This document shows positions 640 to 53,728 of a stretch of 64,000 nt of DNA, piece after piece. This DNA is from a virus, in IMG/VR virus record IMGVR_UViG_3300045988_174402. One strand, written 5' to 3'. Position numbers and translations under genes: made by a program. How positions within the stretch are numbered: position 1 is the first letter of the stretch; each line of letters starts with the position of its first letter. The notes under the pieces were generated by a model. The model was not told the origin of the DNA. It ran no database searches and saw only the letters and a program-made list of their open reading frames with translations.

Positions 640-2535
640 TTAAAAATTAGCTTTTATGCTTTGTTGTTGTTTTTTCAGATTTGCCTGATTATATATATCT
701 CTATATTCACTAGCACTTCCAATTTCATGATTAGATGCAACAGTTGCAAGTTTAGAATCATGCATAGGCATAAATATCATTCCTTTATACATTGAATTTT
801 TATTGCCATGAAATATTTTTCCAAAGAAGCCTGGCTTAAAGTTATCAACCTTTTTGTCTGATTTCTTTACTACATCTCCTCCATAATTTACATAAGTTGA
901 ATAGATATCAAATATTCTATCTTTATCTGGTCCATCAACATGTCATAACCAAGGAGAATTACTATCAAAGTCAATAGCTTTATCACTAGCATAACCTGAT
1001 AATCCAAAAAATACCATCATATCTTCAGGTCTGAATTTTCATCTATTAGTTTCAGTATCAAACTCTAAGTCTAGATCATATTCATGTAATTTTTCTATCA
1101 TTCTTTGTCTAGATACATTAGGATTATCTTCAATTCATTCCTCAAATTTTGTATATCGATCATATGCATCTAAGTCAGGCTTATAAACTCCCATTTGTTC
1201 TGCATCTCGATCTTTTGGAAGTCACATTCTACTAAGTGAACTAGAGCCATCTCACACAAGTCTATTTAAATCAATATCTGATATTCTTTGATCTCCAAAG
1301 AAAATAGAATTTTTATCAACAATATTACCTATTTCAGCCTTATCCAATACATTTTTTAATGTATTTTGAGTTACTTGTGTGCCATTCTTATCTTGTAATG
1401 GATAATCCCTAGTTACAATTTCTAACCCTCCTTTGGCATCAGATGTTGATAAAACTGCAATTTTAGGATCTACAACTCTACCTGCAGCAATAGTTTCTAG
1501 AGAGCTTCTATTAACATCTTTATCAGTTCCTCCAGAACTTCCACTGCCTGCTTTAGATGCAGTTGAATCATAATCTAAAGCTTGTGTATTTTCTACACTA
1601 TGATTTGTATGTTCAACTACAGCAATTTGTAGTAATCGTTTTACATCTTCAGGATTACTTGGATTAAAACCTTCAGCAGCTGCTTGAGCTCTTAAAACGT
1701 TTTTCATATTTTGTGGAAGAGTCTTATATAAATAATTAATAGCTAAATCAAGACTTTCTTTATCATGATATCCCTGATTAGATGTACTATTTGATTCTGT
1801 AACTTTATATATTCCATCTGGTCCATTAAATCCTAATAATTGTTCAAATCCTTTTTCAATTTTATTCTGATATTTAGAAGTATATCTATCAAACTGATTT
1901 GAGGATTTATTAGTTCCAAACGCTCCAATAGTAGCTTTTACATAATCTACTATAGATTTCATTCCAACTGTATTAGATAAATCTGTAAGGATACTATTAT
2001 TATATGCTAGTTCTGGACGTTCTTCTCGAAGATGAATTAATTGAGAATTAGTTAATGCTTGATATTTTTGTGGATTTTTATAATAAGTATCTGCAGATAT
2101 AGTCTTAATACTGCCGTCTTTATTATACACATATAAGCTACCTTCATTACTAATTGCAACTTCAGACCCAGATCCTTCTTTAATAATTTGTTCTGATGCA
2201 GTTTCATGTAATTCATTATTATGTTTAATTCTATTAGCTAAAGATTGTAATCTAATTAAATCAGACATATCATATTGATTACTCTGCCCAGATACAAATA
2301 ATTCACCTAAGTTTTGAGATTTTCTTAAAAAACTATTAGCTCTATCTAAGAAGTAATCTACATCATTAGGTAACCCATTCTCTTTAAGAACATTAATAAT
2401 TTCTTTTTGAATAAGTTGTTCTTCTTTATTTTCACTTGTTTTAGAGGTCTGAGTAGCAACTTGTGTAGGCTCTGCAGCATCTCTAAAAAAGGGGGTATAA
2501 CTAATACCCCCGTTTTGATATCTCTTTATCTTCAT
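640..2535 (-). CDS. hypothetical virion protein (631 aa) with N-terminal MKIKRYQNGG tag
   Basis: Track ORF 1252..2535 ends at TGA. The same frame continues to TAA at 640-642, and the 1896-nt length is divisible by 3. Confidence 0.65.
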
Positions 2536-2537
2536 AT

Positions 2538-5500
2538 TTATGACATCATTTTTAGAAATAACTTAATAATGTTATTATTTAGTTCTCCAACAGCCTTATT
2601 GATAGCTTTTTGCTGGTCTAGATATTGTTGCTCATCTGTTTTACGTAAATATCTACCGCCAGATTTATAACTATAAGGTATAAATCTTTGAATAGGAATT
2701 TGCTCAGGATTAGTATAATTAATTAAATATGGTTTTGTATCTAATTTGTTTCCTCCAAGCCAAAATCTTCTTTGAGATTGCTGATAAGGATTAACTAAAG
2801 CCTCAATTCCATATTTACTACTATTAGTAGCAATATCTCCAGAATATTTGTAATTTAAATAATCATCGATTTTCCAACCACTATATTCTGGATTTTTACC
2901 CTCATTCTGTTGCCAATTATAGAACTCATTAATTTTACTATTTCTAAAATTAGTAAACCAATTACTGAAATCTCCAGCAGCCTTTTGTTGTGCTAATTGA
3001 GCTTGTAAAGCTTGTTTTTCATTTAGATCCTTGGCATAGTCTCCTCTTAACTGATAAATAAGATTCTTAACATTTTGAGTTTGTTGCGTAATCTTATTAG
3101 CATCAGCCATATCTAACTGAGCTAAACCTTGTGCTCAACGGTTTCTATTCTCATTAGTTATCTGAGTTCTAATATTAGCGTATTGTTGTTTTTGAGCAAG
3201 TAACTTATCATTATATTGATCTATCATTTGAGAAAATTTAGCATCTCTTTCTCCTTCTAATTGATCAACATTCATATCTCTCATAAGTCTTTCTGCTAAT
3301 ACTTTATTTGGATCACTAGTCGATGTCTTATATTGACGCATACTTTTAATGCGATCATTATACATTTTATGCAACCCATTATCACTAAATCTAGAGTAAA
3401 ACTCAGTAGGCATTTGTTGTTGAGAACCTATCATTCCTTTACGAATGGCATCTTTCATTTTTTGGGTAGTACGATTGATACCTATTGTAGAAGTAATAAA
3501 GTCTCCTATTCCCATTACCATATCAGGATTAATATTAAATCCTTTTCCTTTGCCATGTCCAAAAGCTGTATAATCAGAGTTATCTGTATTATATGAGGAT
3601 CTGTTTAAATTAGACAAAGTTCTACTAGTAGAATCATTAAGTAATTCTTCTTTTGAATCTAACCTTCCTTTAAACCCAAGATTATTATTAATTTGAGCCA
3701 TTTTAGCATCATTTAAAATTGAATTATACTGATTCCTCACTACAGTATTTTGAGGTGATTGAACAGCTTTATTTAAGCTTGTAGAAGCACGTTTAATAGG
3801 AGTTCCAACAACAGCAACTGGATCTACTTGTACATTAATCGGATTATGATTTTTATCTAGCATATAATCAGCTACACTAGTTCAATTTTGATCTATTGGA
3901 GTACTAAATGTAGGATACTTAGTACCAGGTTGTGCTTTTATAATTTTACCGCCTTTTTTATAAAATACTGGATTATTCTCTGGTTTATAATACCAGAGAT
4001 GTTGTGGTTGATTACTAAATATTCCTAAGTTAGGAGCTAAGTTAGAATAGATTGGCATTGTAATAGGTCTCCGTTTTAGAGCTGTAACAGATGTAAACAT
4101 TTCAGGTCCTCCGAAAAATCTTTGAACTTGAGAAGTTTGTTTATCTGCATAGTTCTTAAAATAAGGATTGCTTCTATTAGTTTTTGCATCTCTAGTAGCA
4201 GCAGTCTTATTCCAATTTCACCAACCCATATCATCTGGATTCCTGTAAGTACTAGGAAGTTCATCATATTTAAATTGTCCTGTATTAAGTCCTTTACTCA
4301 TTGAAGACTTCCAAGGTTTTTTCCAATTGAAATTTACATTAGAGGAACGTTTAATACCATATTCAGAAAGTAAGTCAGTAATATTATCTGTTTTAGCTTT
4401 ACCTAACTTTCCAATAATTATTTCTTCTAACTTTTCAGTTTTTTGATTTTTTGGAAGTGAATTGACCGACTCAATCTCAGAACGACCTAATTTAATAGTA
4501 GGAAGATTTTTGTTATTAGTTGGTTTTAAGGTAACCATATCAGAGTTTCCTCCTTTTAATTTTGCACTTCCTGTGTTACGTTTTAAATTAGCAAAACCTC
4601 TAACTCCATTTAATACAGTACGAACATCTTTAATAGTTCATTTACCATCTTGAATATTTTCTCATGCAGTTGCTAATCCAGATGCAGCACTTCCAAAACT
4701 AACTCCTCTAGTTGCTCACTTAACAGCATTTGCGACAGCCTTAGATTTCTTTAAAGCTTTAGCTATTTTTGCTGCCTTAGCTCCTGAGCCAATCCCAGGA
4801 AGTAAAGTAGCTGCATCTAATCCTAGATTAAGTGCTAAATTACTAACATCGCCTCAATCTAATCCATCTCTAGCAATATCTGCTCCAAAACCAGTTAATG
4901 AACCTACTGCACCAACTCCAGCTCCAGCAACATTGCCAAATCCTGGTACAAAAGTAGCACCTAAAGAAGCAGCATCTGCAACTAAAGCTGCAATTTCAGC
5001 TTTGTCAGCAGCAGTTAATTGTGTACCATCTCCAATAGTTTTTTCTTCTCCAGCAGCGCGAAGTTTTTTATCTGATTGTTGAATTGCTTGTTTACTAGCT
5101 TTTGCACTATTAACTCTATTTGCAGCAACTCCTCCAATTTGATATTTAATAACTCCTCCGTTTTTATTACTTGGAACTCTATAAGCTAAACCTAATTGTT
5201 CTAAGCCTTCAGGAGTAGTAATACTTCTTAGAGCAGAATTACCTCCTGTTCCTGAATATTGCTGTTGATACTTACCAAGCGTTTGAGTTTTAATTAAATC
5301 CTGAAATAATTGATATAAATCAGGATATTTTTGTCCAATAATTGGATTAAACTTAGCATGACGAGTACTAATTGTAGCTATATATGGATTTCTAATAATA
5401 TCACTAATATATCCCTTAACTTCTGGATCTCTTAAGATTTCAGGATGTTGCTCAATATATTGTCCTAAACGAGAATCAATATTCCAATAATAATTTCTCA

Positions 5501-7151
5501 TACTATCTTCAGATCCAGGTAAACGACTATTTAATGTATAGTTATCATTTCCTGGGTTTTCGTCATGAAAATAGTATAATTGAGTTTGAGGATTATAATA
5601 CAATGTAGCTCTTGTTTGAGGATTTGAAGCATCTCCAGTACTTGCTACTTCTTTATATCCTCCAGTATTTCCTATAGTATAGTAACTATTAAAAGCAGTT
5701 GTAGGATTATTTTCATAGTAAGAATTAACTATATTTGGATCTAATTGCTCTTGTAAAGTATTATTATAATTAATTCTTTGTTTAGTTAAAGGATCAATAT
5801 ATACTCTTTCTGCTAAAGTTCTTAAAGGGTGTCCATAGGGATCAAACTGAGAAGAATCTTCAGGATTGTAATTAGGAAAATAATCATAAACTAAAGGATC
5901 ACCTGCTTGTCTAACATAGTTACCAGTTAGATCTGCAGCATATCGATTTGGTTGAAAATACGGGGACCACATTGGATTACCTTCTGAATCAACAGAAGTA
6001 CTAAACCATGGAGATCTAGAACGATTTTCATCCCAATATTGTTTAATAATTGAAGAATTACCAGCAGTTCTCTTATTATCTGCTACAAAATCTAAATACT
6101 TTTGAATTTTAGATAAACTATCTTGGTCATCACCCCTATATACTTTTCCATTAATAACAAATAAACCAGAGTCATCTGGAATATAATCCGCATAACTTCC
6201 ATATTTTCTTTTAAATTCATTATTAAGTCATGCATCTCCAGTTCCAATATATGATAATAATTCTGGATTATTTATAGTTACATTCCCATTTGAATCAACG
6301 TTAAATAGGTTATGGTACTTATCATAATCTCATCCTGCTTTACTTCAGTTTTCTTTTGTTTTCTTAAGTTCTTCTTGTGCAGGATCTACTTCTTTTTGAG
6401 CTTGAACAGGTTTACTTCCTCCTAAAAAGATACCAATATCATCTAATGCCATAGCATCTTCATCCGTCCAATTTCCTTGTTCAAGCCTAGATATAATATC
6501 TTCTATGCCTTGCTCACCATATTTATTGTAAAAGTCTATATAAGCTTGCTTATCTAAATCATTATAGCCTTTAAATTGATCATTATCCCCATAACCTGCA
6601 ATATCTTTTAGACTACGAAGTCTTCTAGTTGCTTTTAGATTATTAGCTCCATTTATATAAACTCTATTTCCATTTACTAATTCAAAATCTCCAGTATCTT
6701 TATTACGCTTATATTCCATAGTAATATCACTAGACCAATCTCTAATATTAATTGGATCTAATGCTTCTACTGGCTTTTTATATTGAAAATCCTTTAAAGC
6801 ATGAACTGCATTTCTTGCAGTATTTTCTTTTCCCCTTCATAGATTTCCAAAACTTCTGCCAAGTCTACTTCGACGTTTACCTAAACGTTCTGCTTGATTA
6901 TTAGTAACATCAAACTGTACTCCTTCTAATCTATCGGCACTAGAATCATATGATAAATTAGCACCTGATCTTAGAGCATCAGTTATTTTACTAAATTGAT
7001 ATGCAGTATCTTGATCTAATGTTTTTCCATAAGAAGACATCTGATTTAGAAAATCATCATCAACCTGATATTGATTACCATCTATAGTAAAAGTGCCGTA
7101 TTTTTGAGTAGGAGTAGAACCGCCTTGTTGATATTTAATTACTTGTGCCAT
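2538..7151 (-). CDS. giant protein (1537 aa), putative tape-measure/ejection-type protein, N-terminal MAQVIKYQQGG tag
   Basis: Track ORFs 6837..7151, 6345..6719, 4854..5972, 4218..4538, 3882..4100, 3135..3863 and 2538..3110 share one frame and are separated only by TGA codons. I hand-translated the junctions, and the true stop is TAA at 2538-2540. A Gly/Ala-rich hydrophobic segment (AALVADAASLGATFVPGFGNVAGAGVGAVGSLTGFGA) is typical of tape-measure or ejection proteins. Confidence 0.55.
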
Positions 7152-7174
7152 TTTATCACACTTACTTTATATAT

Positions 7175-7206
7175 AAAAAGGGAGATTGATCATGTCAAAT
7201 CTCCCT
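7175..7206 (-). terminator. intrinsic terminator after gene 7227..7556
   Basis: Stem agggagatt/aatctccct, followed on the minus strand by a T-run (plus-strand aaaaa at 7175-7179). Confidence 0.6.
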
Positions 7207-7226
7207 TTTATCTAATGATCATTAAA

Positions 7227-7556
7227 TTACTTTTTGCCGAAAAACTTATTTTTCATTTCTCCGCCATTTTCTTTTTTAGCGCATTTCTTACGACCTACTA
7301 TTTTTCCACCCTTTTTGAAAACTGGTTCTCCTTCAGGAGCTTGACCTACAGGACCCTGCGGGCCTTCACTCATAGCTTGCTGTAAAAGTGCTAAAAAGCC
7401 TTCACATACTTGCATTGCTGCCTGGCAATCTTGTGCCTGTAATGCTTGAGCTGCCATCTCTGCTAACATTTGTAGTGGATCTTGTCCACCTTGTGGACCA
7501 GCAGGTGCTACAGGAGCAGGAGCGGGACCGCCTTCTTGATACTTTTTAACTTTCAT
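7227..7556 (-). CDS. small Ala/Gln/Pro-rich protein (109 aa), N-terminal MKVKKYQEGG tag
   Basis: Intact ORF ending in TAA with no in-frame TGA. It looks more G+C-rich than its surroundings, and a TAnnTTTG motif lies upstream. Confidence 0.7.
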   Translation of the reverse strand: MKVKKYQEGGPAPAPVAPAGPQGGQDPLQMLAEMAAQALQAQDCQAAMQVCEGFLALLQQAMSEGPQGPVGQAPEGEPVFKKGGKIVGRKKCAKKENGGEMKNKFFGKK

Positions 7557-7873: not shown

Positions 7874-8488
7874 CTATTTTGGCGATTCAACGTATTCTGG
7901 ATCACGATTATCTTGTTTTTCTAGTATTTTAAACATGTATTTACCTAATTTTTTGTAGGCATTTTCAGTTTTTTCTCTGTTAGCTTTTTTAGCTTTCTTT
8001 ATTAATTGCTTAGTTTCCAGGCGACTAATAATGCGTTCACCTCCTACAAGATCCATTTGAGGTTTGCCATCAGATCCAAGAATGTACATTTTATCTACTT
8101 CTTCTTCGCTAATATCATCTTTATCATCCTCAAAATCTAACTCATCTCCTATTTGAATTCCAGAATTAGCATTAACTTCAAGTACATATTTAGTGGTGTC
8201 TTCAGAATCAGAAGGTTCAGAAACTATAACTTCTGAACTATGAGCTTTACCTAATACAACATTATAAACTTCATCGTCTTGATCTATGAAGATTAGATCA
8301 ATATCAAATTCCATTTCCTCTGTATTAAATACAACCTGACCCTGATCTTCAGGCATAACAAATAGCATACCTTCATCATCATCCATAGATTCTACATTAG
8401 AGAGACCTTGAGTTCTTTCCTCTTCTGTTTCTGCAACTAAGACTTTATATTTCTTATCTGCTATTTCAATTATCGTTTCTTTCATCAT
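7874..8488 (-). CDS. DUF192-like protein
   Basis: Track ORF 7874..8515 ends in TAG. The sequence pattern (AETEEERTQGLSNVESMDDDEGMLFVMPE...FDIDLIFID...KYVLEVNANSG..IGDEL) resembles the DUF192/COG1430 family. The likely start is one of the MMKE ATGs at 8483-8488. Confidence 0.55.
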   Translation of the reverse strand: MMKETIIEIADKKYKVLVAETEEERTQGLSNVESMDDDEGMLFVMPEDQGQVVFNTEEMEFDIDLIFIDQDDEVYNVVLGKAHSSEVIVSEPSDSEDTTKYVLEVNANSGIQIGDELDFEDDKDDISEEEVDKMYILGSDGKPQMDLVGGERIISRLETKQLIKKAKKANREKTENAYKKLGKYMFKILEKQDNRDPEYVESPK

Positions 8489-9986
8489 TAAAATTATTAT
8501 ATAATCCAAAACCAAGCATTACTGGTATATTTCCTATTGCATATTTCATTTTAGAATCTCAGTATTTAGAAGGTTCTTTTGAAACTCCTAGATTTTTTCA
8601 AAAACTTATATCTTCTAATTCTTCATTACGTAAGTCTCCGATACGATCTAAATAATCATTAAGGTACCGTGTTCGTAAATAAGGTCTTTTAATTATCTCC
8701 TCAAATTCCTTCTCTGGCATTTTTTCTAGAAACTCAAATAGCTCGTTTCTATCAGAATTAATTTCAGGATATCGTCCGTTTCTTTTATAAAATTCATTTA
8801 CAAACTCTTCACGGAGTTGTTCATTAACAGCTCTACGTTCTATTGTAGTATTACTTCCAGGAATAGTCTCTATTCTAGTTGGATATGCCTCCGTGATTAA
8901 TTTTTCCTGTTTTGAAGTTAATTCAGTTGGCAATATCTGACCGTCATATACGTATTTATGATTTAATTCATGAGTCATAGTAGATCTATTAAACCCAGTA
9001 TTATTTAAGAATACATAATTTGTTAAGTCTCTTTCATTAGATCGTTTAGGAAAGAAATATCCATGAGCTAATTGATTTCCTTTAGTAGAATTATAAATCG
9101 CTACTCTAGGATTAGTTGAAACAATATTTGATACCTTATATCCCTCTCGTTTAGCTATATTATATGGTATAGATTCAAAGTATTTAGTTTTTTCTGAAGG
9201 TACTGGAAGATCTTCAATAATATCTAATTCTTCATTTTTAAGTTTTATTTTTGATAAATCGTCTCCAGTTTTAGGATGTTTTTTAGTAAAAGTATTTGGA
9301 GTTTTATCTTTAACTACTTCTGCATATTTTCTAAGTTTATCTAAATATCGTTTTCTTAACTCAGAATTAGTTGAATTTTGTGTATTTGTAGGAATAGAAG
9401 GAAACGTATATGGTTGAACTCCTTGGTTAAGAAATCTATTTCTAGTAAAATTTATTCCTCTTTTTAATAATCCTAGACTACCTCCAATATCTAATATATC
9501 TCCAATTCCAGATAAAACAGCTTTTCCATAATTTCCTGCTTTAGCTTCTCTATAAGTTTTTTGTACTCCATTATCACTAAGAAAATTTCTAGCTCCATCA
9601 ACAGTTAATCCTATGTCAATTCCTGTTTTAATTCACTTTGGTAATTGACTATATATTCAAGATGCGCTTGGCGCCGCCAAAGCTCCTGCTCCAATTATTG
9701 CTGAAGCATACATAGCTGTATTTAATCCTTCATACCCTCTTCTCTGTTTAGCAGCATCCTCTCCTATCTTTCCTAACAACTCTCTAGCTTCTTCATTTCC
9801 ACTATTTGCAGAAGATGTTAATGTAGAAATGTGTTCTCTATATTTACTAGGATTAGTTTCTTTTAAATCGTTAATTCTTGTCTCTAAAGATGTAGTTGGC
9901 TTTAGAGGAGTATACAGCTCTGGATTTTTATTGATATTATCCAGAGCTGTAACAACTTGTGATCTTATATCTAATGGTATATTACT
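8454..9986 (-). CDS. HExxH (HELNH) metallopeptidase-motif protein, start codon unclear
   Basis: Track ORF 8598..8978 extends past its TGA to TAA at 8454-8456. Upstream the frame stays open to 9986 (TAG at 9987-9989), but the first ATG lies about 90 codons in. Confidence 0.45.
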
Positions 9987-11172
9987 CTATACTTTTAATT
10001 AAACCACTTCTATCATCTGTGTTTTTTAGTAATTCGTAGCAGATAAGTTTACCAGCTTCTATAGCTATATCATCAGATGAATCATCTTGATATTGCTTAT
10101 ATAATCTCTCTAATTCATCAGTAAACTCTTTACGAAAGATAACTTCTTCTTTTTCAATTTCTGCTTGCTGAATTACTCCTCCTTCTCCCTGAGCAACAAC
10201 TGGAATACCTTTACTAGTAATTTGTCCTTCTAATTCAGGATTTATTTTTTCTAAATTGTGCTTTCTAGCATGTAAAGCACCTTCTGGTATTAGATTCATT
10301 TTTCCTCCAAGTTGAAACTTTTTAGGTTCTGTGGAGTTGGTTGATCACCTACTTATAATTACTCTTGCTTCATCTAATTCTGGAAATTTCATTCCGTGTT
10401 TAGCTAATGAGTATAATTGTTGACCTCCTGAAAATCTTAATTGATTTTGAGTATTAAGAGACATTGCAGCATCACTATCAAGTCTTTTTTTGTTAAAGTC
10501 AGTTATATCTGCCTTCTTATTATACATAGATCAAGCGTTAGCTATTTGTTTTTCTTTCTTTCCTTTTCCAAATAATATACTTTTCCCACCTAGATCAGAC
10601 GCAGCTTGTTCTTTATTAAAAGAATAATCAGACGCCACACTACTTCTATCAAAATTGTGTTTAGTTAACTTACTACTAAATAAACTTGCAGCGTTTCCAA
10701 TAACAGGAATACTACTAATAACTTTATCTCCTGTAGATACTCCATCAAGCTTTTTACCTGCCATGCCTGCTATGCCTCCTAATAAATCATCAGCAGCACC
10801 TATAGCCATTCCTATTGGTCCTAACTTATCAGTAACTGACCTAATTCCAGATTTAATTGCAGCTGCTTGTTCTCCTCCATTTGGACCTCCAATATTTCCA
10901 ATAGCTCCTAATGCTTGAGAAGCTATATTCATACCTGTAGAACCCATAAAGTTTCCAAAACCACTTGTTGGTTTTGTTAAGTTTAATGACGATGCTGAGC
11001 TTTTAAACTTTGGCATATCCTGTTGGATTGTAGTTGAAGATTTTTTCATGAAACTAGATTGAGGCATGCTAGGCATAAGATTTTTATTTACCTTACTAAG
11101 CATATCTACATCCATAATTCCTGCTACTTCTCCTCCAGTAATTAACTTATTTATTTTTCTATATTTATACAT
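9982..11172 (-). CDS. hypothetical virion protein (396 aa), Gly-rich
   Basis: Track ORFs 10531..11172, 10345..10527 and 9982..10299 share one frame and are joined through TGA codons at 10531 and 10345. The stop is TAA at 9982-9984. Confidence 0.6.
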
Positions 11173-14100
11173 ATCCTTGAGTCATTATTGTATGTAAAGC
11201 AGAGATGGTAGCTAATTGAGTTCCATTATATCTAACTCTAATAATCGCATATTTATCTCTTACTCTTGTAGATTTAAGAGTCTCATTTTCATAATATATT
11301 GGCTGAATAACTGTATACCACATATCATGATTATAATATATATTTCCTAACCTTCTGCCATACTCTTTAATATTTAAACAATCCTGATGTACTAATAACG
11401 AATATTCATTACGCATATTATCTCATGTAACAGTTGTATAATATTCCTTTTTTGTATTTTTATCATCGTCTTTATCTAATAAAATCTTAGGAAAAATATT
11501 TGTAATACTTTCTCCCTTTTTAATTGAAGAATAAATATTTTCTTTATCAAAATCGTATACATCTCCAACAATTTCTATTTCGAGAGATTCTGGTTCTACA
11601 TTATTAGAAACAATAACTAAATTATCAAATATTTTATGTAGTCCAGCTGGAGTATTAACAACAAATTCAAATTCGAATGGTTCTTGTTTATCATACCATT
11701 TAGTTGGGAATATTCTTCTCTTTGAATCTGGATTATTATAATCTACTTCATCAATATTTCCAGCTCTACCGTGTAAATATATATTGTTTAATAAAGCTTT
11801 TCTTCATTTATTTTTTTCCTCTGCGGATTTTAATTGATTTTCAGGAATAAGTAAACCTATATCATAAGATCTAGTTGCAGCAAATACTAAATAATCATTA
11901 TTACTTACTTTAGAACTATTATATATTCCTTTATATTTAGATAAAAGATATGGAGTATATTCTATATTTATAATATAATATAGATATTTACTATTAGTAT
12001 TCTTTTTAAATTTAATTACAGTTTTATCCTCTTTATTATAAACATAAGATATATAATATACATATAATGCATATTGTTGAGAAGCTTCGTTATTATCCTT
12101 TGTTTGAATTCTAACTCCATCTAAAGTTAAATATTCTTCTCCTACCTTTCAAAAATATAATCCTGTTTCTTCATCTTTTTCAGATTTAGGAATTATTACG
12201 TTGTTAGCTTCAATTATAAAATTATCATTATCAACCTTTGCTAAACTATAATCATTTTCTGCATGTTTGTCTATTAGTACCTCTGATTTAACTCTTTCAT
12301 CTCAATAATAACCTGTAATTTTTACAGATTGAATATTGAAATTTGCATATTCTGAATTAGAAATAAATCTTAAATCTTTATCAATATTTATATCATCTCA
12401 TAACCCATTTCATGGATTCATTGGAGCAATTATTGATTCTGATTGTTTCCTAAGATTATTATTTAAAATTCCATAGATATTTGTTTTAGAAAGATCAAAG
12501 CTAAAATAACTGTTATATAGATTACCTGAAAAGAATGGAGTTCATGAGTATCTAGTTACTCACATTTTTCGTACCTCATTATAACAGATATTCCAAATTT
12601 TATCTTTATTATAAAAAGTGAACATCACATCATTTTTATACGAGTTAAAATGAGTCTTTACATTTCTAACTCCTAGAATAACAGATTTTTCGAGTTTCTT
12701 TAAATTGATATTATCATTTAAATATCTCTGAATATTAAATTCTGATATTAACTCAAATCCTTCTTCTGACAGTTTTCAAATTTTCTTAGCATATGTATCT
12801 ACTCCATACAAAGCTCTTGGAGTTCTAATAATTGAATCTTTCCAACTTGATCCATACATATCAGAGATCATTGTCATTTGCTTTTGAAGAACTCCAGAAC
12901 CATACATATGAATGTTTTGTCCTTGAGTAGTTTGAATTAGTGCTTTTTCATTTACAGGAACTATAGCAATAGCATGTTCAAAGACACAAAGAATATTATT
13001 TTGTCAAGGAAGTATTTTAACAATTCCTCCATACTGCCTGTCCATGTCTTCGTATGACAATCCTTGAAATACTTTATATGAGTTTTTAAACGAACCGTCT
13101 ACTTGAACATTACTAAACATTATTCTAGTATCAAATATATCTTTAATATATGGTACTATTTCAAAAGCGTAATTTCTTTTTACTCCTACTGTAGTATTAT
13201 ACCCAAAGTTTAATAATGCAGATTCAGGAATCTTTGCAGATGATTTTACTGAAATATCATTTACAGGATAAAAGTTTCTATAGTTTCCCATTAATGCGTA
13301 TTCATCTGTATTGAATGGATCTAAAGACCGTAATCCAATATTTGAATTAGATAAACACTTATATACAAACCATGTTCCAATTGGAACTGCGTCTACATCA
13401 GCTTTATTGATTGCATCTCAATCTGTAGTACTTCTAGCTCCTTTAAAATTGTCTTTCCAGCAATTAGGATCAACAATTGTATCGTTAATAGGTACAGAGG
13501 TTGAAGTAAAATTACGATGCATTCTTGTACATACTGTTCCTGTAAAGCAGTCTCCTCTAAATACAATAGGAACTGTATTTAAATTAATATTAGTTTTATA
13601 TGTAAAAGATATTGGAATTAACTTTTTGTTAGTTGAATTATCTATAGCTAAATAGTCTTTACGCAGTTGCGTAAATGTAAATTCTGCAAAGTTAGGATTA
13701 TCAGTAATGTACTTTTTAATTGCTATATTATCATCAGTACTATCATCTATACTATCCTTATATTCTAATGCGGTATTTAGATAATCAATCAAATCCTTCT
13801 CAAATTCATAATCTGAAACCGAAGTTTCTCATAATGGACAATTTTTAGTAACAATTTGATCTTTTTCTATATCGTTAACTACTTCTTCATCAGATAAGCT
13901 ATATCTATCACTAACTGCAAAAAATGGAGAATTATCTCTCATTCTAATTGTAAAATATTCTTCAAGAAAGGCTTCACTGTAATTCTTTATATAAATATCA
14001 TATAAACAATTATCCTCAACATCTCCTTTAACTCCAATAAAAGATGTAAATATACCTCTGATATAATCAGTTGAAGTTGCGTTATCTGTAACAGTGTGCC

Positions 14101-15940
14101 CAAAAGAAACTACTTGTTTTAAATCCTCTTGCATACCTGCTTTTGTACTAAAAGCATAATCGTCAAGAATTCTTTGAGGTACTTCAGAATCAACATAAAT
14201 TAATCCTTTTACTTGTTCAGAATCTGTTCCACTTTGAGTTTTATAATTTGGATAATAAATTCTAGTCTTAATATTCTTTAAACTATCTTCAAATTCAGTT
14301 TTTCTTATTAAGTTAAACTCAGACCCATTAAATAAAGATTGCAGTTGCTTATCTACATAAGAATCAATACACAATAACCCAGAACTAGATTTCATATTAC
14401 TAACAATCTTTCTAGAATTATATTCTGTATTTAATACCCGAGATGTATTTATGAATGATTCTGCTATATACTTAGGACTTCCATTTTCTGTACCATCTCT
14501 AAGTGTAGGAACACTACTAGCTTCATCAACTCCAATACTAAAACCTTGTGCTAAAAAATTAGGTATTCTTTTTTGGCGAACAAAAAAGTACCCTTTAATA
14601 TTATATTCTTTAAGCTTATCTATTACAATTTCTGGAATTTGAAATTGGATTCCAAGTGGAACTACTCTCTGATTACTGTAATCAATTATGTCTATATCTT
14701 TACTAAATCTAAATATTCCATTAGTATTTTCAAGTTTAGTCTTATCTAGAAAATCAGTAAACTCAATATCTTCAATTTTATTTTCAAACTTAAAGTTTAT
14801 TTTACCTTCTTTCTCTATTGTATAGTTAAAGTCTATTCCTCTTAAGTTATATACTGGAGATAAATGATCATCATTAAAGATATAAACTATTCCAAATCGA
14901 TATAGTTCTTTTGGAAAATATCCTAATCTATAATATAGATTTTGTGGAGAGTAGTATTCTATTTGAGAATCGTCAAGATTTTCTTTAGTTACAAAAGTAT
15001 CAGGATGAATATATCCTATATTATAATTTTCATCCTGAACTTCTTTAGCTACTATATGTAAAGATAAATTTCTTAGGCCAGTGTTTTCATCTTCATTTTT
15101 CTCTACATTAGCAAAAAATAACATATTTTGTACTTGTGTTTGAGTTTTCACACTCTCAACATAATTGTACTGAATATTTAAATCTTCAACCGTTACTTGT
15201 GAAGTTTCTTCATATCCAGTAATAGTTATTAGTTGTGAACCAGAAACAATTTCATAATTAACATCAATTTTATATGTTTCTTGAACTAGTACTCCATTTT
15301 GATCACAAGTATTTCGTAAGCAGTATAGATTAAAGTATTTAAAAGAAGTGTCTATATTATAAAAGTTAAGTAATATTGACTTATCTGTTCTTTCATCCAT
15401 AAAAGCACCACTACATGTTTTTGGATTATTAATAGTTCCTTTAAATACAGAAATTATACCAGTTTCAGCAACTATATCTGTTTCGTTAAAATCCTCATCG
15501 AGATATTTTAAATAGAAAATATAGTTACCTCCTTTTAATTGCCCAAAAGTTGAAACTTTGTTAAGCTTCAACTTTGGGATCTTTTGTACATTTCTAAACA
15601 ATCTAGTTTCTTGATCAAGAAAACTTTCATCATATAGATTAGATTGTTTATTTTGATTTCGATTAATAACTTTGTATCTATCTCCTTCTAATAAGGTAAC
15701 TCGGCTATTAATTATACGTGGAGGATTTATATCATCATTTAATATTAAGTTTACAGATCCATCATAACTTTGTTGACATTCAATATCAATTGGATTTTCT
15801 AAACTAATATTAAGTTGATCATTATCTACTTGAAAGTTAGTAATACTACCATCATCAGCCTTAATATTTCTTAGTGGATGATATTCTCAAGCGACATCTC
15901 CCTCTGTTTTATATTTTTTAACTTTTAAAGTTACATCCAT
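11165..15940 (-). CDS. very large structural protein (1591 aa), baseplate/tail-associated by position
   Basis: ATG at 15938-15940 lies directly after the upstream TAA. Track ORFs 13829..15601, 13418..13792, 13004..13291 and 11165..11416 are in the same frame. I checked 11417-12181 codon by codon and found only TGA interruptions. The remainder is inferred from frame identity. Confidence 0.5.
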
Positions 15941-15941
15941 A

Positions 15942-18900
15942 TTACCTATCACATGTTATTGTACTACATTGTGCTATATCGACCCATCCTCCATAAGTTT
16001 GAGACATTGCTAAGTCTCCTTTACTTAAGTTTGAATCATCATCAATATATACTCTTCCCTCCTCATATCTAAGATATTTAACAAGTGTAGATAACTTAAT
16101 CATGTTATCTTCCTCTTTGTAAGATTCATGTAAGTATACTTGTTTATTACTTAAATTTTCAAGTTGATTAAAAGAATCTCTTAATTTATTATATTTATTG
16201 TTAACATTTTCTACAAAACTTGCTAATGCTATTTGTATATTATTATCACTTGTAAAATAAAATGTTTTAGATACAGGAATTCTAGAAGTAATTTCATTAT
16301 CTATTTGAAGTTTATCCTTAATTTTATCTATTGAATCTTTTAAATTACTTGAACCGTTATATGTATAACCGTAATTAAATTTAACAATAGCATTTAAAGC
16401 CTTAGTCTTAAATGAATCAAATTCTTCTTTAGATAAAGATATAGTATAAAAATAATAAGATATCTCCATAACCGTATCTGCAATTCTAACATAAGCCATT
16501 ATTGCTGTATATAGTAGCATTGCTTGCAATTGCATAGTATCTCGCTGATTATTATCAATCGGCATTCCTTGTACAGGCGGAAACGAATAAAATATAGCTC
16601 AAGCTCTATCAGACCTTTTACTGGGAATTAATAAACCAAATAACCAATACTCATAATTTGGATACTCTGTAGTTGCACGAATTTTTTTATGATCTTTTCC
16701 ATTTCTATTATCTGCTGCAAACATCATCGGTCCTTTTATAGCAGAAGTTACACTTCTCATTTGACTTGATTTTAAGTGCCCACTACTAGAGGTCATAGAA
16801 TCTCTAGATAATCCTCATTTATCATATTTAGAATCTTCATTACTATAATCTCAACGTTGACCACTATCAGGATTTAATACATTAATATCTGTTAAAGTAA
16901 TTGGAATAGATTGAGTAGAATTCGCCTTAAAATAACGGTTACCTATAACTTCTCATTTATCTACTCATGATTTATGTTTTCTTCACTCAGTAGACATATT
17001 ATTTTTACTTCAAACACAATAAGTTACAAACGATTTTAAAGATATTTGATTTTTATTATAATCATAAGTATTATTTCAATTAGAATCAAGAGTACTAAGA
17101 TTATTTAAGTTTTTTTCATTTTTAGCTCTAGTTTTTCTAATTGGAGAATTACTTGCAACAGATAATGCATATTGATCATATATATCAAAATAAATCTCCA
17201 CATTTTTATCAATATATTTTTTATTAGAATCTTTATTAGATCTAATATTAACTTTGTGCGATTTATTTAAAGTATCTATAAAATAACAATTGCTTCCTAT
17301 TTGGCTTAATATTAAATCTTTTCAAAGTCTTCCAATAGAATTATCATATTGATTTTTTGGAAGAATTATTTCAAATAAATCCCCTTTACCTTCTTCCTGA
17401 AGTATATATCTTTGTGCAGATCGAACATTTGCGCTTCCGACTTTATTAGTTGTTTTATTTTCCGCTACAAACGCGTCTCCATAATATTTTTTAATATTAT
17501 TATCGTTTTCAAAAGTATCTTCTATATTTAATGTAGATATTTCAGTATAATCATTACTATCAATATTCTTAATAAGAATAACATCTGTTGGAACTTGATC
17601 TAACATCTTATCAAAATTATTTATTGTAACAGTTAACTGATGAGATATATTACTAGCTCATAATTCTGCAGTTATACTTTTGTAATCATCTCAAGCATAA
17701 AAATAATTAGTAAGCTCAGATATATATAATATTTGTTCCTTTTTGTCTCCTAATATTATATTAGAATCAGTTTTAATAAAATAGTATACTTCTAAAGTAT
17801 AAATATCTTCTTTATCAAAATGATTTATATTTGGATTATAATCTTCTGAATAGTAAGGAATATCAACAATATTTATTCCATTATAATCTAATTCATTTCA
17901 TGAATATACTTTTGTACCATTATTTAATGTTATTTCATCTCCTACTCCTTCTATAATACATTTTTTATATTCGTAAGGAAGTTCAGGAGAATAACGATAT
18001 AGGTTATATCCAATATTTATACCTGGAGCTGCTTTAAAGTCAAAGTATAAAGTTGTAGAGTTTTGATCTACATAATACTTAAAATAATCTTCTCCAAATG
18101 TTATTTTATTTGCATCAATTGTTTGAGATTCAGTACTGATTACTGTTGTAAACTGATCATATATTATATAGTTATCTCCAACTTTTAAAGCAGGAGTAAC
18201 GTAGTTGTATTCTATATCTGTTTTTTGATATGTTGTATGTAAAATAGATTGAACATCATTATACTCTAAAATAGAAATTTCACTCTGCTCAATTTTATAA
18301 CGTTTTTCATTAATATCAGATTTGATATCCGATGTATCGTGAAATATAAAACATAAATTATCTTTAATGTAATTTAAACGAATATTATCATACGTTTCTT
18401 TACTTCAAATAGTTTTTAGTTTTAGATTTCCAGTAGGAGTTACAACATATTTATTATCAGTAGTTTGGTTTACTGTTACATTTGATTGTTCAAAATATAC
18501 TCCAAATTCTTCTGGAGTATTAATTTCAAATCTTGCAGCTAACCAACCAGGTATTTCTCAAGAAATTGGTTTATAATCTGTACTAGTTTCAACATCTTGT
18601 TCAGTTCTAAAATTAATATAATTATTTATTCTATATAACTTATTTTCATCAGTTAAAACATATAGATTTAAATGTTGCCAATTTAATTTTTCTGTAGATG
18701 AAGAAAGTAAATCTTCTGATTCTCCTTTGTCATTTTTATAATATAATAAATATTCGTCTCCTGGAGATAAATAAAAATTAACATCCTTATCTTTACTTAA
18801 TAAAGTAACAGATTGATTATTTATATTAGAATAAAAACTATATATGTCGTCTTCTAGCTCAATAAAATTTAAACTATTATTTGTATTATCTCCTTCAATA

Positions 18901-19205
18901 TTATTAAAAATAGTTTGAGGTGCAGGAAATGTACCAATTTCTGCTTTATTTTCTATAGGATTATAAGATATTATATATAATAATCCTCCATGTTCTTTTA
19001 GTCCAACTGGAACGTAGTTTGGAGTTAAACTTCCTTGTTGAAAGGCATAATTACCCATATCATTTTGAAGAATAAATTCGTCTCCATTATATGTAATTAA
19101 AGTTCCATTTAGACAGTCTGTCATAACAGTATTTGGAGTTACTAAAGGATGAAGGTCCTTAATCATTCCTCCATTAAACTGACTAGTTTGTGTTAATCTT
19201 TCCAT
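15942..19205 (-). CDS. large structural protein (1087 aa)
   Basis: Track ORFs 18558..19205, 17322..17606, 16599..16796 and 15942..16565 share one frame. I checked the 16566-16601 junction, and the stop is TAA at 15942-15944. Confidence 0.5.
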
Positions 19206-42393: not shown

Positions 42394-42398
42394 ATAGT

Positions 42399-45300: not shown

Positions 45301-45569
45301 TCTACACCAACAATTATATCGTCTTTATAAATTAGATTCGGCTTATTTCATTCTGATGATAAATGACCTCTTAGACAATACAATAAAGCTCCTTCACAAG
45401 ATATAAAATCAATAATATGTTCATCGTTGAAATAATGAGTGTCTGGAGTTCAGGCTCCTGCCATCTTAAAAGATGTTCCTCTATAAAAATCTCTAGAACT
45501 ATACATTCTATAATAGTCTTGAGAATTTATTGCATTATCTATGATTACATTAGCATTAGATCTCTTCAT
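42399..45569 (-). CDS. large collagen-like tail fibre / host-specificity protein (1056 aa)
   Basis: ATG at 45567-45569 and TAA at 42399-42401, hand-translated. The N-terminal ~100 aa are paralogous to gene 40420..42393. It contains G-X-Y runs and two tandem Y-x-H-I-K-Y-S...YVDF...DPSDY-x-W modules. Confidence 0.65.
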
Positions 45570-52207: not shown

Positions 52208-53728
52208 TTATTTTAGATTAAAACGTTTATTAAATGCTTTGTCTCGTTTATCATATTCTTGTCTTTCAACTTTTTTATCTCTAAATTTTCACCACTTAGG
52301 ATTATTAGAACGTGACATGCTACTTAAATCGTTTGTATATGTTGTATCTCTTTTATCTGCACTTATATCTCTATATGAACGCTTTCCTTTTGGATTTGTT
52401 ACAATTTCTCTTATAGATCCATCTGAATTAATTATTCTTTCAGATTTATATCCATTAGATTTAGCTTGTTCAGTATCAGCTGTACCATTTGCCCAGTAAG
52501 GAATACCTGTCGGATGTAAGAATTTTAATAGATTCTGTTGTCTAGGTGTATATTGTTCTGGAGCAAACTCATCTAATTTTCTTTCTGCATTAGAAATAAT
52601 AGGATTTGCAATTCTATTAACCATAACAGGATTATAACCTATTTTAATTAAAGAATCTCTAACTAATCCTGTAGTATTAAATACATCATGTACATTGTGA
52701 TCTCCTGTCCTATTGTTTAGCGCCTTAGTAACAGCTACACTATCATTTGGATTAACCTTTACTTTAGTTGTAGTTTTACCCCCTTCTTGGAAAAATGAAC
52801 CAAGGTTTCTTGGATTGATGCGGTGTTCAACAGGAATAGATCCTAAAGTAGCATTATTTCCATAATTGACCGACATACTTCTAGGTCCTACATATCTACT
52901 ATCAAACCTATTAGGATTACCTAAATTAGATGCCACTATGTAATCACTATATGAAGGATTAGTTATAACTAATTCTTCATTCATGTTTGTAGGTCTAATT
53001 CCTTTAGCTGCAGACATTCCAGCTTCTTCTGCTCCAGAAATATTTCTTGATCCAAGATTAGATTGTGGAAGTTTTGGTTTCTTAGGAGCAGGTCTTGTTG
53101 GAGCTAATTGAGTTCCATATAATTTTCCATTTCAAGTAAAGCTAGTAAGTCCTGCACTTCTAGCTGCTGCAAAAGCTTGATTGAAATTACCTTGAGATAA
53201 ATCAGGAGTAACATTAGTTTGTACATTTACTTTAGGAGTAATTCCAGTTTTCATAGATACTCCAAAAGATAAAGGTTGAGAAACAATTGAACCTTCAGTT
53301 TTTGTTACTTTAGGTTTAGAATTATCTCCTACAATATTTTTCATTGCAGCTGCTTTAACTTCTCTTCTACTTAATCCAAGATCTTGATCCTTAATAGCAG
53401 ATTTCATATTTCTATATACAGTACGATTGAATTTAGAAGATTTCTTACCTTCTTTTACAACCTTCTTATTTTCTTTACGTTCATTCTTTGCAGATCCTCC
53501 ATCCTTAAATTTATTAACAAGATAAGCAAGTTTACCTCCTTGTTTAAACATTCCTGCAGATTGTTCTTGTTTAAATTGATTAATCAATCCAGAAATAGTA
53601 TTCATACCATCTTCTGTTTGTGCTAACTCATTTAATTTTCCTACAATTTCTTCAGGTGTTTTATTTTGGAATTCTTCTACTTTAGATGGAAGTCATTGAA
53701 CAAATTGCATTAATTCTTCTTGTTCCAT
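52208..53728 (-). CDS. hypothetical protein (506 aa) with FKQGGK/FKDGGS/FQEGGK motifs
   Basis: ATG at 53726-53728. Track ORFs 53132..53605 and 52289..53017 share a frame and are joined by TGA. The stop is TAA at 52208-52210. Confidence 0.6.

What the first reader, a model, noticed from the sequence alone, without database searches (positions are those of the whole stretch)
640..7556. Three consecutive virion genes start with the same K-[KR]-Y-Q-x-G-G tag
The three N-termini are MKVKKYQEGGPAP (7227..7556), MAQVIKYQQGGSTP (2538..7151) and MKIKRYQNGGISYTP (640..2535). The giant middle protein repeats the motif internally: VIKYQIGGV, VFYKKGGKI, SYKSGGRY and RFFGGP. The small first protein repeats it near its C-terminus (VFKKGGKIV). 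A short shared N-terminal peptide ending in Gly-Gly on adjacent structural or ejection-type proteins suggests a common processing site or a common targeting/docking signal. Double-glycine cleavage by a maturation protease is one possibility. I cannot name a described family for this motif.
Basis: partly seen in the sequence, partly recalled or inferred. Interest (0 to 1): 0.7.

Follow-up and report, generated by a model that had tools for sequence, protein, structure and literature searches.

The report
Shared peptide tag on crassvirus cargo proteins
Several proteins that a gut crAss-like phage carries in its particle and probably injects into the host share a short, conserved peptide (basic start, aromatic residue, two residues, Gly-Gly) that seems undescribed, recurs across the crassvirus cargo protein 1 family, and most likely acts as a docking or loading signal.

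Summary
The window is a crAss-like phage that reads TGA as a sense codon; two of the three genes are open only under that reading. The three genes lie between the muzzle gene and the giant virion-RNA-polymerase block, where PhicrAss001 encodes cargo proteins gp45 and gp46.

- **Enrichment:** [FY][KQ]xGG occurs 11 times in 5 of 52 proteins, against 0.77 expected. It lies within the first 12 residues of three proteins, against 0.015 expected.
- **Conservation:** the tag is conserved in more than 100 homologues, down to about 30% identity, and in a standard-code relative.
- **Context:** it sits on arms or linkers that AlphaFold2 predicts to be disordered. It forms islands of conservation in variable sequence, at module junctions where homology blocks and strain-level domain swaps begin or end.
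- **Wider family:** the PhicrAss001 gp45 family carries the same kind of motif (N-x-[FY]-[AD]-x-G-G-x-[LI]). I counted 456 copies in 150 representatives, against 97 in shuffles.
- **Absent from:** the giant polymerase-block proteins.

The mechanism is unresolved. I favour a docking or loading peptide (0.4) over a maturation cleavage site (0.2) or a role after ejection (0.2). A C39-type double-glycine leader is not supported. I found no description in the papers searched.

The parts
640..2535 (-). P1, a 631-aa predicted cargo protein. It lies in the position of PhicrAss001 gp46 and has 5 in-frame TGA codons.
   Evidence: It has 106 homologues. The AlphaFold2 model (pLDDT 71) has a disordered N-terminal 40 residues. 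There are no Pfam, PHROG or PDB fold matches.
2485..2535 (-). P1 N-terminal tag, MKIKRYQNGGISYTPFF.
   Evidence: M1 is invariant; G9, G10, Y13 and P15 are conserved in at least 90% of 35 diverse homologues. Residues 18-36 are variable and rich in indels.
2538..7151 (-). P2, a 1537-aa giant predicted cargo protein. It is a modular mosaic with a conserved glycine-zipper, membrane-type segment at about residues 720-800, and has 11 in-frame TGA codons.
   Evidence: The glycine-zipper segment is the only part found in MT835470. It is also the only part that aligns, weakly, with the gp45 family.
7119..7151 (-). P2 N-terminal tag, MAQVIKYQQGG.
   Evidence: All 43 homologues begin MAQ, followed by K-[YFLH]-x-x-G-G with small spacing variants; 32 of 43 fit [FYW]xxGG.
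5127..5153 (-). P2 internal motif 1, VIKYQIGGV (residues 667-675).
   Evidence: It lies at the start of the region with pLDDT below 50, directly after a folded domain. BLASTP homology blocks start at residues 653-667 in 12 homologues.
3939..3968 (-). P2 internal motif 2, VFYKKGGKII (residues 1062-1071).
   Evidence: It is a conservation island scoring 5-9 within a region scoring 1-3 that has 113 insert columns. It is nearly universal in homologues. Homology blocks end or start at residues 1055-1079.
2649..2675 (-). P2 internal motif 3, YSYKSGGRY (residues 1493-1501). It precedes the conserved C-terminal helix.
7227..7556 (-). P3, a 109-aa protein with a tag at each end. In order: N-terminal tag, Pro/Ala-rich linker, a conserved core with two Cys that looks helical by eye (not predicted), Pro/Gly-rich linker, second motif, basic tail.
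   Evidence: There are 28 distinct orthologues with the same layout.
7527..7556 (-). P3 N-terminal tag, MKVKKYQEGG.
   Evidence: Relatives show one-residue spacing variants (KFLQEGG, KFMQEGG).
7296..7322 (-). P3 C-terminal motif, VFKKGGKIV.
   Evidence: PVF[KA]KGGK[ILM][IV] is conserved in all 28 orthologues.
9982..11172 (-). P4, a 396-aa protein immediately after the muzzle gene. It has a basic N-terminus with a LITGG variant, a glycine-rich hydrophobic segment, the motif, and then a conserved C-terminal domain.
   Evidence: The layout resembles the N-terminal half of gp45, but only the glycine-rich segment aligns (hhalign probability 24%).
10297..10323 (-). P4 internal motif, KKFQLGGKM (residues 284-292).
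   Evidence: It is conserved as KFQLGGKMN, KFQKGG or MFKDGG in all relatives. In some lineages (L025, L050) the protein also has an N-terminal copy.
52208..53728 (-). P5, a 506-aa lysine-rich protein just upstream of the terminase gene cluster. It has three motif copies and an exchangeable C-terminal module.
   Evidence: Its analogue in MT835470 begins MATKFQQGG.
53492..53551 (-). P5 motifs a and b, MFKQGGKL...KFKDGGS (residues 60-79).
52775..52795 (-). P5 motif c, FFQEGGK (residues 312-318), at a module junction.
   Evidence: In 24 of 31 close relatives, identity of 95-98% stops at residue 319-322, and a different C-terminal module follows. A second junction falls at KFAEG(G).
11165..15940 (-). 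Muzzle protein gene. It is context only and marks the start of the cargo block.
   Evidence: Pfam crAss_MUZ 1.7e-30 and crAss_MUZ_C. BLASTP gives 2.8e-8 to PhicrAss001 gp44.
7874..8488 (-). DUF192 gene, conserved inside the cargo block. It is context only and its role is unknown.
   Evidence: Pfam DUF192 3.4e-18. It is syntenic in relatives.

Best explanation
The three genes are cargo (ejection) protein genes of a TGA-recoded crAss-like phage. Their shared start is this lineage's version of a short linear motif: a basic leader, an aromatic residue, two residues, Gly-Gly, then often Lys and an aliphatic residue.

The motif marks the muzzle-proximal cargo proteins across these crAss-like phages and the gp45 family. 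It sits on flexible N-terminal arms and in flexible linkers between modules.

My preferred mechanism is a docking peptide. Each copy would bind the same conserved site inside the particle, either on the portal-tail conduit or on the assembly scaffold. The bound proteins would be loaded and held with their N-termini leading. Several copies per chain would add avidity, and any module fused behind a copy would be carried along.

Shown: the motif is real, under selection, predicted to be disordered, placed at module junctions, and restricted to this class of proteins.

Inferred: that it binds something, what it binds, and when.
For: (1) Identity of the proteins. The window's own muzzle, ring-1 and capsid proteins hit the crassvirus Pfam models. 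The gene order is muzzle, P4, P3, P2, P1, then a 2500-3200-aa giant protein. This mirrors PhicrAss001 gp44, gp45, gp46 and gp47-50. In PhicrAss001, gp45 and gp46 are cargo proteins found in virions by mass spectrometry, and gp45 is seen bound to both portal and tail barrel (PMC10172136).

(2) Non-random occurrence: 11 against 0.77 expected, and 3 N-terminal against 0.015 expected.

(3) Selection. The tags are kept in 106 P1 homologues and 43 P2 homologues at 25-60% identity, while the adjoining linkers vary. The internal copies are conservation islands. The tags are also kept in a standard-code 117-kb relative.

(4) Disorder. AlphaFold2 gives pLDDT below 50 for P1 residues 1-40 and for P2 from residue 662 onward.

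(5) Module junctions. Homology-block boundaries in P2 cluster on the motifs. Strain-level C-terminal swaps in P5 begin right after a motif. The Pfam CARG1 domain of gp45 homologues is flanked by motifs.

(6) Generality. The gp45 family has 456 aromatic-xx-GG sites in 150 representatives, against 96.9 +/- 9.9 in shuffles. In 95 of 150 a copy lies in the first 35 residues after a basic leader. The logo is N-x-[FY]-[AD]-x-G-G-x-[LI].

(7) The motif persists although P1-P5 have no detectable homology to gp45 or gp46. That is expected if the constraint comes from a conserved partner rather than from the fold of the carrier.
Against: No partner was identified, and nothing here shows binding.

The giant polymerase-block proteins are also thought to be stored in the capsid, yet they lack the motif. 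It therefore cannot be a universal packaging signal.

In the PhicrAss001 cryo-EM work the resolved gp45 pieces are residues 214-245 and 425-552. The clear motif copies lie at 17-21, 260-264 and 559-563, just outside those pieces. If they were docked on symmetric sites in the mature virion they might have been seen. Any docking may therefore be transient, asymmetric or of low occupancy.

Three or four different proteins with the same N-terminal tag would compete for a small number of portal or muzzle sites.
Confidence: 0.4

Rival explanations
1. The motif is a maturation cleavage site. A phage or host protease cuts after Gly-Gly. This removes a roughly 10-residue targeting propeptide from P1, P2 and P3, and cuts the giant P2 and gp45-type proteins into separate mature pieces.
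For: The conserved residues lie mainly upstream of and at the Gly-Gly, as in many protease sites. Internal copies lie in linkers predicted to be disordered, at module boundaries.

Precedents from my own knowledge: T4 internal proteins share an N-terminal capsid-targeting sequence that the prohead protease removes, and phiKZ/SPN3US-type phages cleave many packaged proteins.

The phage encodes a ClpP-family protein 27-31% identical to siphophage head-maturation proteases, about 8 kb beyond the window end. ORF 8454-9980 in the cargo block carries HELNH.

Cleavage at gp45 residue 264/265 would explain without threading why residues 214-245 sit in the tail and 425-552 in the capsid. This is my inference.
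Against: The ClpP-like gene is absent from the whole MT835470 record and from the whole PhicrAss001 genome, and both carry the motif. It lies outside the head module, among genes on the opposite strand.

No protease domain was found among the window proteins scanned against Pfam or PHROGs (the cargo block, muzzle, ring, capsid, portal and terminase genes) or in the Pfam hits on record for relatives' loci.

The HELNH-bearing half of ORF 8454-9980 appears to be missing in some relatives, whose ORFs at that position are only 277-297 aa.

The PhicrAss001 atlas paper mentions no protease, no cleavage and no scaffold.
Confidence: 0.2
2. The motif acts after ejection. It would be a turn or hairpin element (aromatic residue, Gly-Gly turn, aliphatic residue). 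It might help the extruded, partly unfolded chains refold or associate into the trans-envelope conduit, or it might bind a host envelope component.
For: The motif is concentrated in proteins that also carry glycine-rich hydrophobic segments of membrane type: P2, P4 and gp45. The atlas paper expects gp45 and gp46 to form the channel and gp45 to leave first.

The motif is absent from the polymerase-block giant proteins.

A motif-like element, FINEGG (residues 443-448), lies inside the solved portal-bound domain of gp45. This suggests, but does not show, that such elements can be ordinary structural turns.
Against: AlphaFold2 predicts no secondary structure at the copies. This reading does not explain the exact N-terminal placement in three or four proteins. 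P1, P3 and P5 have no obvious membrane segment. The motif is kept across lineages likely to have different hosts, so a host partner would itself have to be conserved.
Confidence: 0.2
3. The motif has no specific function. It would be a flexible hinge favoured by composition, or a junction kept because recombination between modules happens there.
For: The motifs coincide with recombination and module boundaries. These proteins are rich in Gly.
Against: Shuffles that keep composition give 0.77 against 11 observed, and 97 against 456 observed. The aromatic residue at -3 and the K/Q or A/D positions are conserved, not only the Gly-Gly. The Gly codons vary, so nucleotide homology at the junction is weak. 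A hinge does not need to sit at residues 5-10 of three proteins.
Confidence: 0.08
4. The tags are bacteriocin-type double-glycine leaders, cut by a C39 peptidase or ABC exporter.
For: The only support is that the tag ends in Gly-Gly near the N-terminus.
Against: The leader is about 10 residues, not 15-30. Positions -4 and -7 are Q/K and K/R rather than hydrophobic (the leader consensus is from my own knowledge). No C39 domain is on record in or near the window. The carriers are proteins of 100-1500 aa, and copies also occur internally and at the C-terminus.
Confidence: 0.02

Closest known systems
PhicrAss001 cargo protein 1 (gp45; Pfam crAss_CARG1, PF25725; PDB 7qog and related entries)
   Same: The gene lies directly after the muzzle gene. 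The protein has a basic N-terminus followed by aromatic-xx-GG, a glycine-rich hydrophobic segment, further motif copies between modules, and a basic tail (KKAKGGKVRTKKKK, compare FKKGGKIVGRKKC in P3).
   Different: No window protein hits the CARG1 domain. Profile-profile comparison aligns only the low-complexity glycine segment. The local consensus is K-[FY]-[QK]-x-G-G rather than N-x-[FY]-[AD]-x-G-G. In this lineage the motif is spread over five proteins, whereas in PhicrAss001 it is concentrated in one.
Capsid targeting sequence of phage T4 internal proteins (IPI-III, Alt); recalled from my own knowledge, not tested here
   Same: A peptide of about 10 residues at the very N-terminus is shared by several unrelated proteins that are packaged in the head and injected with the DNA.
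   Different: The T4 signal is N-terminal only and is removed by the prohead protease at a defined site. Here copies are also internal and C-terminal. Cleavage is unknown, and no prohead protease sits in the head module. The sequences are unrelated.
Double-glycine leader peptides cut by C39 peptidases
   Same: An N-terminal segment that ends in Gly-Gly.
   Different: Length, the hydrophobic pattern, carrier size, the presence of internal copies and the absence of a C39 peptidase all differ (see the membership test).
Junction motifs of polymorphic toxins (VENN in CdiA, DPxGL in Rhs); recalled from my own knowledge
   Same: A short conserved motif marks the border between a constant delivery region and exchangeable C-terminal modules. 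P5 shows this pattern at FFQEGGK and KFAEGG.
   Different: The sequences and the delivery machinery are unrelated. Here the motif is also an N-terminal tag. No toxin or effector domain was recognised in the variable modules.
Ejection proteins of podoviruses (T7 gp14-16, P22 gp7/16/20, N4 gp51/52)
   Same: They have the same general role as that inferred from position and architecture: stored in the particle and leaving before the DNA (PMC10172136; PMC13434306).
   Different: I know of no shared tag described for those systems, and there is no sequence similarity.

Membership tests
Crassvirales-type virion gene module (phage identity) | Crassvirus muzzle, ring and major capsid proteins | tested here: met
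   The window's proteins hit crAss_MUZ at 1.7e-30, CrAss_Ring_1 at 2.2e-7 and Crass_capsid at 9.9e-9, all above the Pfam cut-offs.
Crassvirus cargo protein 1 (gp45 family) | CARG1 portal-binding domain (PF25725) | tested here: not met
   P1-P4 have no hit at E <= 0.01, and P5 has none at E <= 0.1. hhalign of the P2 and P4 families against the gp45 family aligns only a glycine-rich segment, with probabilities of 1.7% and 24%.
Crassvirus cargo protein 1 (gp45 family) | Gene lies immediately downstream of the muzzle gene and upstream of the polymerase-block giant genes | tested here: met
Crassvirus cargo protein 1 (gp45 family) | Presence in purified virions | not testable with these tools
   This needs proteomics of virions of this uncultured phage.
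Crassvirus cargo protein 2 (gp46 family) | crAss_CARGO2 domain (PF25712) | tested here: not met
   gp46 itself scores 6.4e-219. P1 has no hit, and BLASTP or phmmer of P1 against gp46 is not significant.
T4-type capsid targeting sequence | Short N-terminal peptide shared by several packaged proteins | tested here: met
   P1, P2 and P3 carry it here. P4 and the P5 analogue carry it in relatives.
T4-type capsid targeting sequence | Removal by a prohead protease encoded in the head module | tested here: inconclusive
   No protease was found in the head module. A ClpP-family gene lies elsewhere in the genome but is not co-conserved with the motif. Cleavage itself cannot be tested here.
T4-type capsid targeting sequence | Necessary and sufficient for packaging | not testable with these tools
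   This needs reporter fusions in a cultured crassvirus.
Double-glycine leader / C39 peptidase system | Leader of 15-30 residues with hydrophobic residues at -4, -7 and -12 | tested here: not met
   The leader has about 10 residues. Position -4 is Q or K and -7 is K or R.
Double-glycine leader / C39 peptidase system | C39 peptidase or peptidase-containing ABC transporter encoded nearby | tested here: not met
   None appears in the Pfam results for the window proteins I scanned or in the Pfam hits on record for relatives' loci, which together cover most of the window and about 8 kb beyond its end.
Type IV pilin-like signal | Short basic leader ending in Gly, followed by a hydrophobic helix of about 20 residues | tested here: not met
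   The residues after Gly-Gly are ISYTPFFRDAAEPTQ, STPTQKYGTF and PAPAPVAP, none of which is hydrophobic.

The most novel reading that the evidence does not exclude
The aromatic-xx-Gly-Gly peptide is the general 'cargo tag' of crassviruses: a portable signal that is necessary and sufficient to load a protein into the portal-tail conduit or capsid cargo zone, and so to have it injected into Bacteroidales cells ahead of the DNA. This would explain why unrelated cargo proteins in distant crassvirus lineages keep it, and why strain-variable modules sit behind it. It would also give a way to load chosen proteins into gut phage particles.
Probability: 0.2. Interest if true: 0.85.

Novelty: new variant of a known kind. 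Interest (0 to 1): 0.62.

Why it matters
[quoted passage not shown] The structural atlas (PMC10172136) gives no account of how that cargo is selected, loaded and ordered for ejection.

A short, conserved, portable peptide is a concrete handle on that question. It marks the muzzle-proximal cargo proteins even where the proteins themselves are not recognisably related.

It can be mutated, fused to reporters and searched for in existing cryo-EM maps and mass-spectrometry data of PhicrAss001. It could also be used to recognise cargo proteins in crAss-like lineages that have no detectable gp45 or gp46 homologue.

If the motif proves to be a cleavage site instead, the published picture of one gp45 chain threaded from capsid to tail would need revisiting.

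Tried and rejected
- **Family and structure searches.** PHROGs and Pfam scans of P1-P4 and neighbours gave nothing for the motif carriers. Sequence searches of P2 and P4 against the PDB gave nothing. Foldseek of both AlphaFold2 models against the PDB gave nothing below E = 0.3.
- **DNA similarity.** A blastn search of the region against phage records found no match.
- **Homology to PhicrAss001 cargo proteins.** BLASTP and phmmer and hhalign of family profiles (the first attempt failed on input format) found only a low-complexity glycine segment.
- **Nucleotide-level explanation.** I considered an internal Shine-Dalgarno-like GGAGG or an RNA element at the gene starts. I rejected it because the Gly codons differ between copies and the motif also lies deep inside ORFs.
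- **ClpP-family protease as the shared processing enzyme.** It is absent from two motif-bearing genomes.
- **DUF192 as a partner.** The literature search was uninformative, and the PhicrAss001 annotation lists no DUF192 protein.
- **Poorly spent search.** The word-index homologue search with gp45 returned only sequences at least 96% identical. The representative-library search replaced it.
- **Refused AlphaFold2 job.** The P2 segment 600-1537 contains recoded TGA codons, so it is not an exact translation of the window. I used the TGA-free segment 309-765 instead.
- **Gel evidence.** The PhicrAss001 paper and its supplements do not say which band is gp45.
- **RFFGGP.** I rejected it as a motif instance.

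Full report
**What is in the sequence**

Nearly all genes of the window are on the minus strand, and G+C is about 30%. Under the standard code the two larger ORFs of the finding are fragmented. Translation shows 5 in-frame stops in 640-2535 and 11 in 2538-7151. Every one is TGA, and each gene ends in TAA.

Reading TGA as sense gives a compact map of long, abutting genes. At four of the five TGA positions of the 631-aa protein, homologues mostly have W, Y or F. The protein databases hold full-length homologues. This fits the TGA-to-Trp recoding reported for structural genes of zeta crAss-like phages (PMC12386605). No tRNA gene lies in the window.

The quoted N-termini and internal peptides are all present, and I verified their coordinates.

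**Is it more than chance?**

[FY][KQ]xGG occurs 11 times in 19,459 residues of 52 non-overlapping ORFs, all in five proteins. Shuffling each protein gives 0.77 +/- 0.85, with a maximum of 4 in 1000 trials. Three proteins have the motif in their first 12 residues, against 0.015 expected.

- the 396-aa protein next to the muzzle gene (9982-11172), with KKFQLGGKM;
- a 506-aa lysine-rich protein near the terminase (52208-53728), with MFKQGGKL, KFKDGGS and FFQEGGK.

The Gly codons differ from copy to copy, so the constraint acts on the peptide.

**Independent test by conservation**

- **P1.** Its 106 homologues almost all begin MKIK[KR][YFH]QxGG[IV]xYTPF, even at about 30% overall identity. In a diverse subset, G9, G10, Y13 and P15 are conserved in at least 90%, while residues 18-36 are a variable Ser/Thr/Gln-rich linker with indels.
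- **P2.** All 43 homologues begin MAQ, followed by K-[YFLH]-x-x-G-G with small spacing variants; 32 of 43 fit [FYW]xxGG. Most of them keep [FY]YKKGGK near residue 1050.
- **Syntenic loci.** Forty-nine loci from IMG/VR show the small protein always carrying both the N-terminal tag and PVF[KA]KGGK[ILM][IV] near its C-terminus. The giant protein's copies fall in four conserved alignment columns.
- **Standard-code relative.** A 117-kb relative, MT835470, whose capsid protein is 53% identical, has MSQAIRKYQTGG on its giant protein and PKKFAEGGKV on its P4 analogue. A 275-aa protein next to its terminase begins MATKFQQGG.
- **Not an instance.** RFFGGP is not conserved.

**What the proteins are**

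The window's own proteins hit Pfam crAss_MUZ (11165-15940, 1.7e-30), CrAss_Ring_1 and Crass_capsid. The terminase and a split portal match PHROG families.

The order is muzzle, P4, a variable ORF, DUF192, P3, P2, P1, and then a 2500-3200-aa protein seen in relatives' loci. In PhicrAss001 the order is muzzle gp44, cargo protein 1 gp45, cargo protein 2 gp46, and the polymerase-associated giants gp47, gp49 and gp50. There, gp45 and gp46 are virion proteins. Pieces of gp45 are seen bound to the portal (residues 425-552) and to the tail barrel (214-245), and gp45 is proposed to leave first and form a channel (PMC10172136).

P1-P5 have no detectable homology to gp45 or gp46 and no structural neighbours. 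P2 and P4 do share with gp45 a conserved glycine-rich hydrophobic segment of membrane type. I therefore call them cargo or ejection proteins by position and architecture, not by homology.

**The same kind of motif marks the gp45 family**

PhicrAss001 gp45 has IFDTGG at residue 17 after MAKKKIKRRGK, AFAEGG at 260 and MFAYGG at 559, plus looser copies.

In 150 representatives of its family (clusters at 50% identity), aromatic-xx-GG occurs 456 times in 122,819 residues, against 96.9 +/- 9.9 in shuffles. In 95 of the 150 a copy lies in the first 35 residues. The logo is N-x-[FY]-[AD]-x-G-G-x-[LI].

The only Pfam-defined part of gp45, the portal-binding CARG1 domain, is bracketed by copies in long homologues. 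Within the 80 kb of PhicrAss001 that I scanned, gp45 (3 copies in 842 aa) has by far the highest density; gp47 has 3 in 2341 aa and the other six hits are single (12 hits in 25,113 aa).

**Structural context**

AlphaFold2 models have mean pLDDT of about 71. They place the P1 tag on a disordered 40-residue arm. They place P2's first internal copy, residues 667-675, at the start of a disordered stretch directly after a well-predicted domain.

The copy at residues 1062-1071 is an island of conservation in a region full of insertions. BLASTP blocks between P2 and its homologues start or end at residues 653-667 and 1055-1079, that is, on the motifs.

In P5, 24 of 31 close relatives are 95-98% identical up to residue 319-322, just after FFQEGGK. 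They then continue with a different C-terminal module, and a further switch falls at KFAEG(G). The motif therefore behaves as a short linear motif in flexible linkers at module junctions.

**Mechanism**

I could not establish what the motif does. My ranking follows.

1. **Docking or loading peptide (0.4).** This best fits four observations: the strict N-terminal placement on several unrelated proteins, the multiplicity, the predicted disorder, and persistence across carriers with no detectable homology. Against it, the polymerase-block giants lack the motif. The motif-bearing stretches of gp45 lie just outside the parts resolved by cryo-EM. No partner is known.

2. **Maturation cleavage site (0.2).** This is attractive by analogy with T4 and giant phages (from my own knowledge). 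It would also explain simply why gp45 pieces sit on both sides of the portal. The only clear protease homologue is a ClpP-family gene about 8 kb beyond the window. That gene is absent from MT835470 and PhicrAss001. No protease was found in the head module. The published gel data do not settle whether gp45 is intact.

3. **A role after ejection (0.2).** The motif could act in refolding, in assembly of the conduit, or in binding the host envelope. This fits its restriction to proteins resembling channel formers, but it does not explain the N-terminal placement.

4. **Hinge or recombination junction with no specific function (0.08).** The conservation of the aromatic and neighbouring positions argues against this.

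5. **C39-type double-glycine leader (0.02).** Leader length, residue pattern and the absence of the peptidase all fail.

**Novelty**

The atlas paper does not mention any such motif, protease or scaffold. Full-text searches for crassvirus cargo motifs, packaging signals and ejectosomes found nothing relevant.

Shared N-terminal targeting peptides on packaged phage proteins are a known idea. This motif, its spread through crassvirus cargo proteins and its position at module junctions appear to be undescribed. I rate it a new variant of a known kind, and it is testable in the cultured PhicrAss001 system.

Noticed in passing
whole window; for example 640-7151, 11165-19205, 40420-45569: TGA is used as a sense codon, most likely Trp, in many late or structural genes, with up to 14 per gene. 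Several genes, including the small P3, the capsid gene and DUF192, have none. No tRNA gene lies in the window, so any suppressor tRNA must lie elsewhere in the roughly 176-kb genome.
   Followed up: partly
46506-47549 and 47872-49050 (minus strand): The portal gene is in two ORFs. They match PHROG portal profile positions 441-784 and 52-325. A gap of about 320 nt (47550-47871) lies between them. This could be an intron or another intervening element, or a genuinely split gene.
   Followed up: no
55010-56938 (minus strand): This 642-aa protein looks like a PD-(D/E)XK-type nuclease interrupted by a LAGLIDADG-type, intein-like insert. A close relative, locus L089, has a 313-aa PDDEXK_1 protein at the same position without the insert.
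   Followed up: partly
8454-9980 (minus strand): An intact 508-aa ORF in the cargo block begins with ATA where a 99%-identical relative has ATG. It carries an HExxH-type motif (HELNH) in a C-terminal half that appears to be missing in some relatives, whose ORFs here are only 277-297 aa, and a membrane-like N-terminal part.
   Followed up: partly
L090:443-970, about 8.3 kb beyond window position 64000: A 175-aa ClpP-family protein is 27-31% identical to head-maturation proteases of siphophages. It lies outside the head module, among genes on the opposite strand. It is absent from MT835470 and PhicrAss001.
   Followed up: yes
52208-53728 and loci L057-L087: Close relatives (95-99% identical) carry at least three different C-terminal modules on this protein. 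The switches fall exactly after motif copies. The pattern recalls the constant-region, variable-module layout of polymorphic toxins.
   Followed up: partly
7874-8488 (minus strand): A DUF192 protein (Pfam 3.4e-18) is kept inside the cargo gene block in nearly all relatives examined. Its role in a phage particle or in assembly is unknown.
   Followed up: partly
7227-7556 (minus strand): The small tagged protein keeps three cysteines (QDC, VCE and RKKC) in nearly all 28 orthologues; two distant ones lack the third. They might form a metal site or a disulfide.
   Followed up: no
63148-64000, running off the window end: The last ORF is the C-terminal part of a 669-aa protein with a Glucosaminidase (PF01832) domain in a near-identical contig. 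It is a probable peptidoglycan hydrolase.
   Followed up: no
10297-9982 (C-terminal third of P4): The segment after the motif, GKMNLIPEGALHARKHNLE...KGIPV...AEIE...IEAGKL.C.ELL.NT.D, is highly conserved down to the most distant relatives. It matches no known family.
   Followed up: partly
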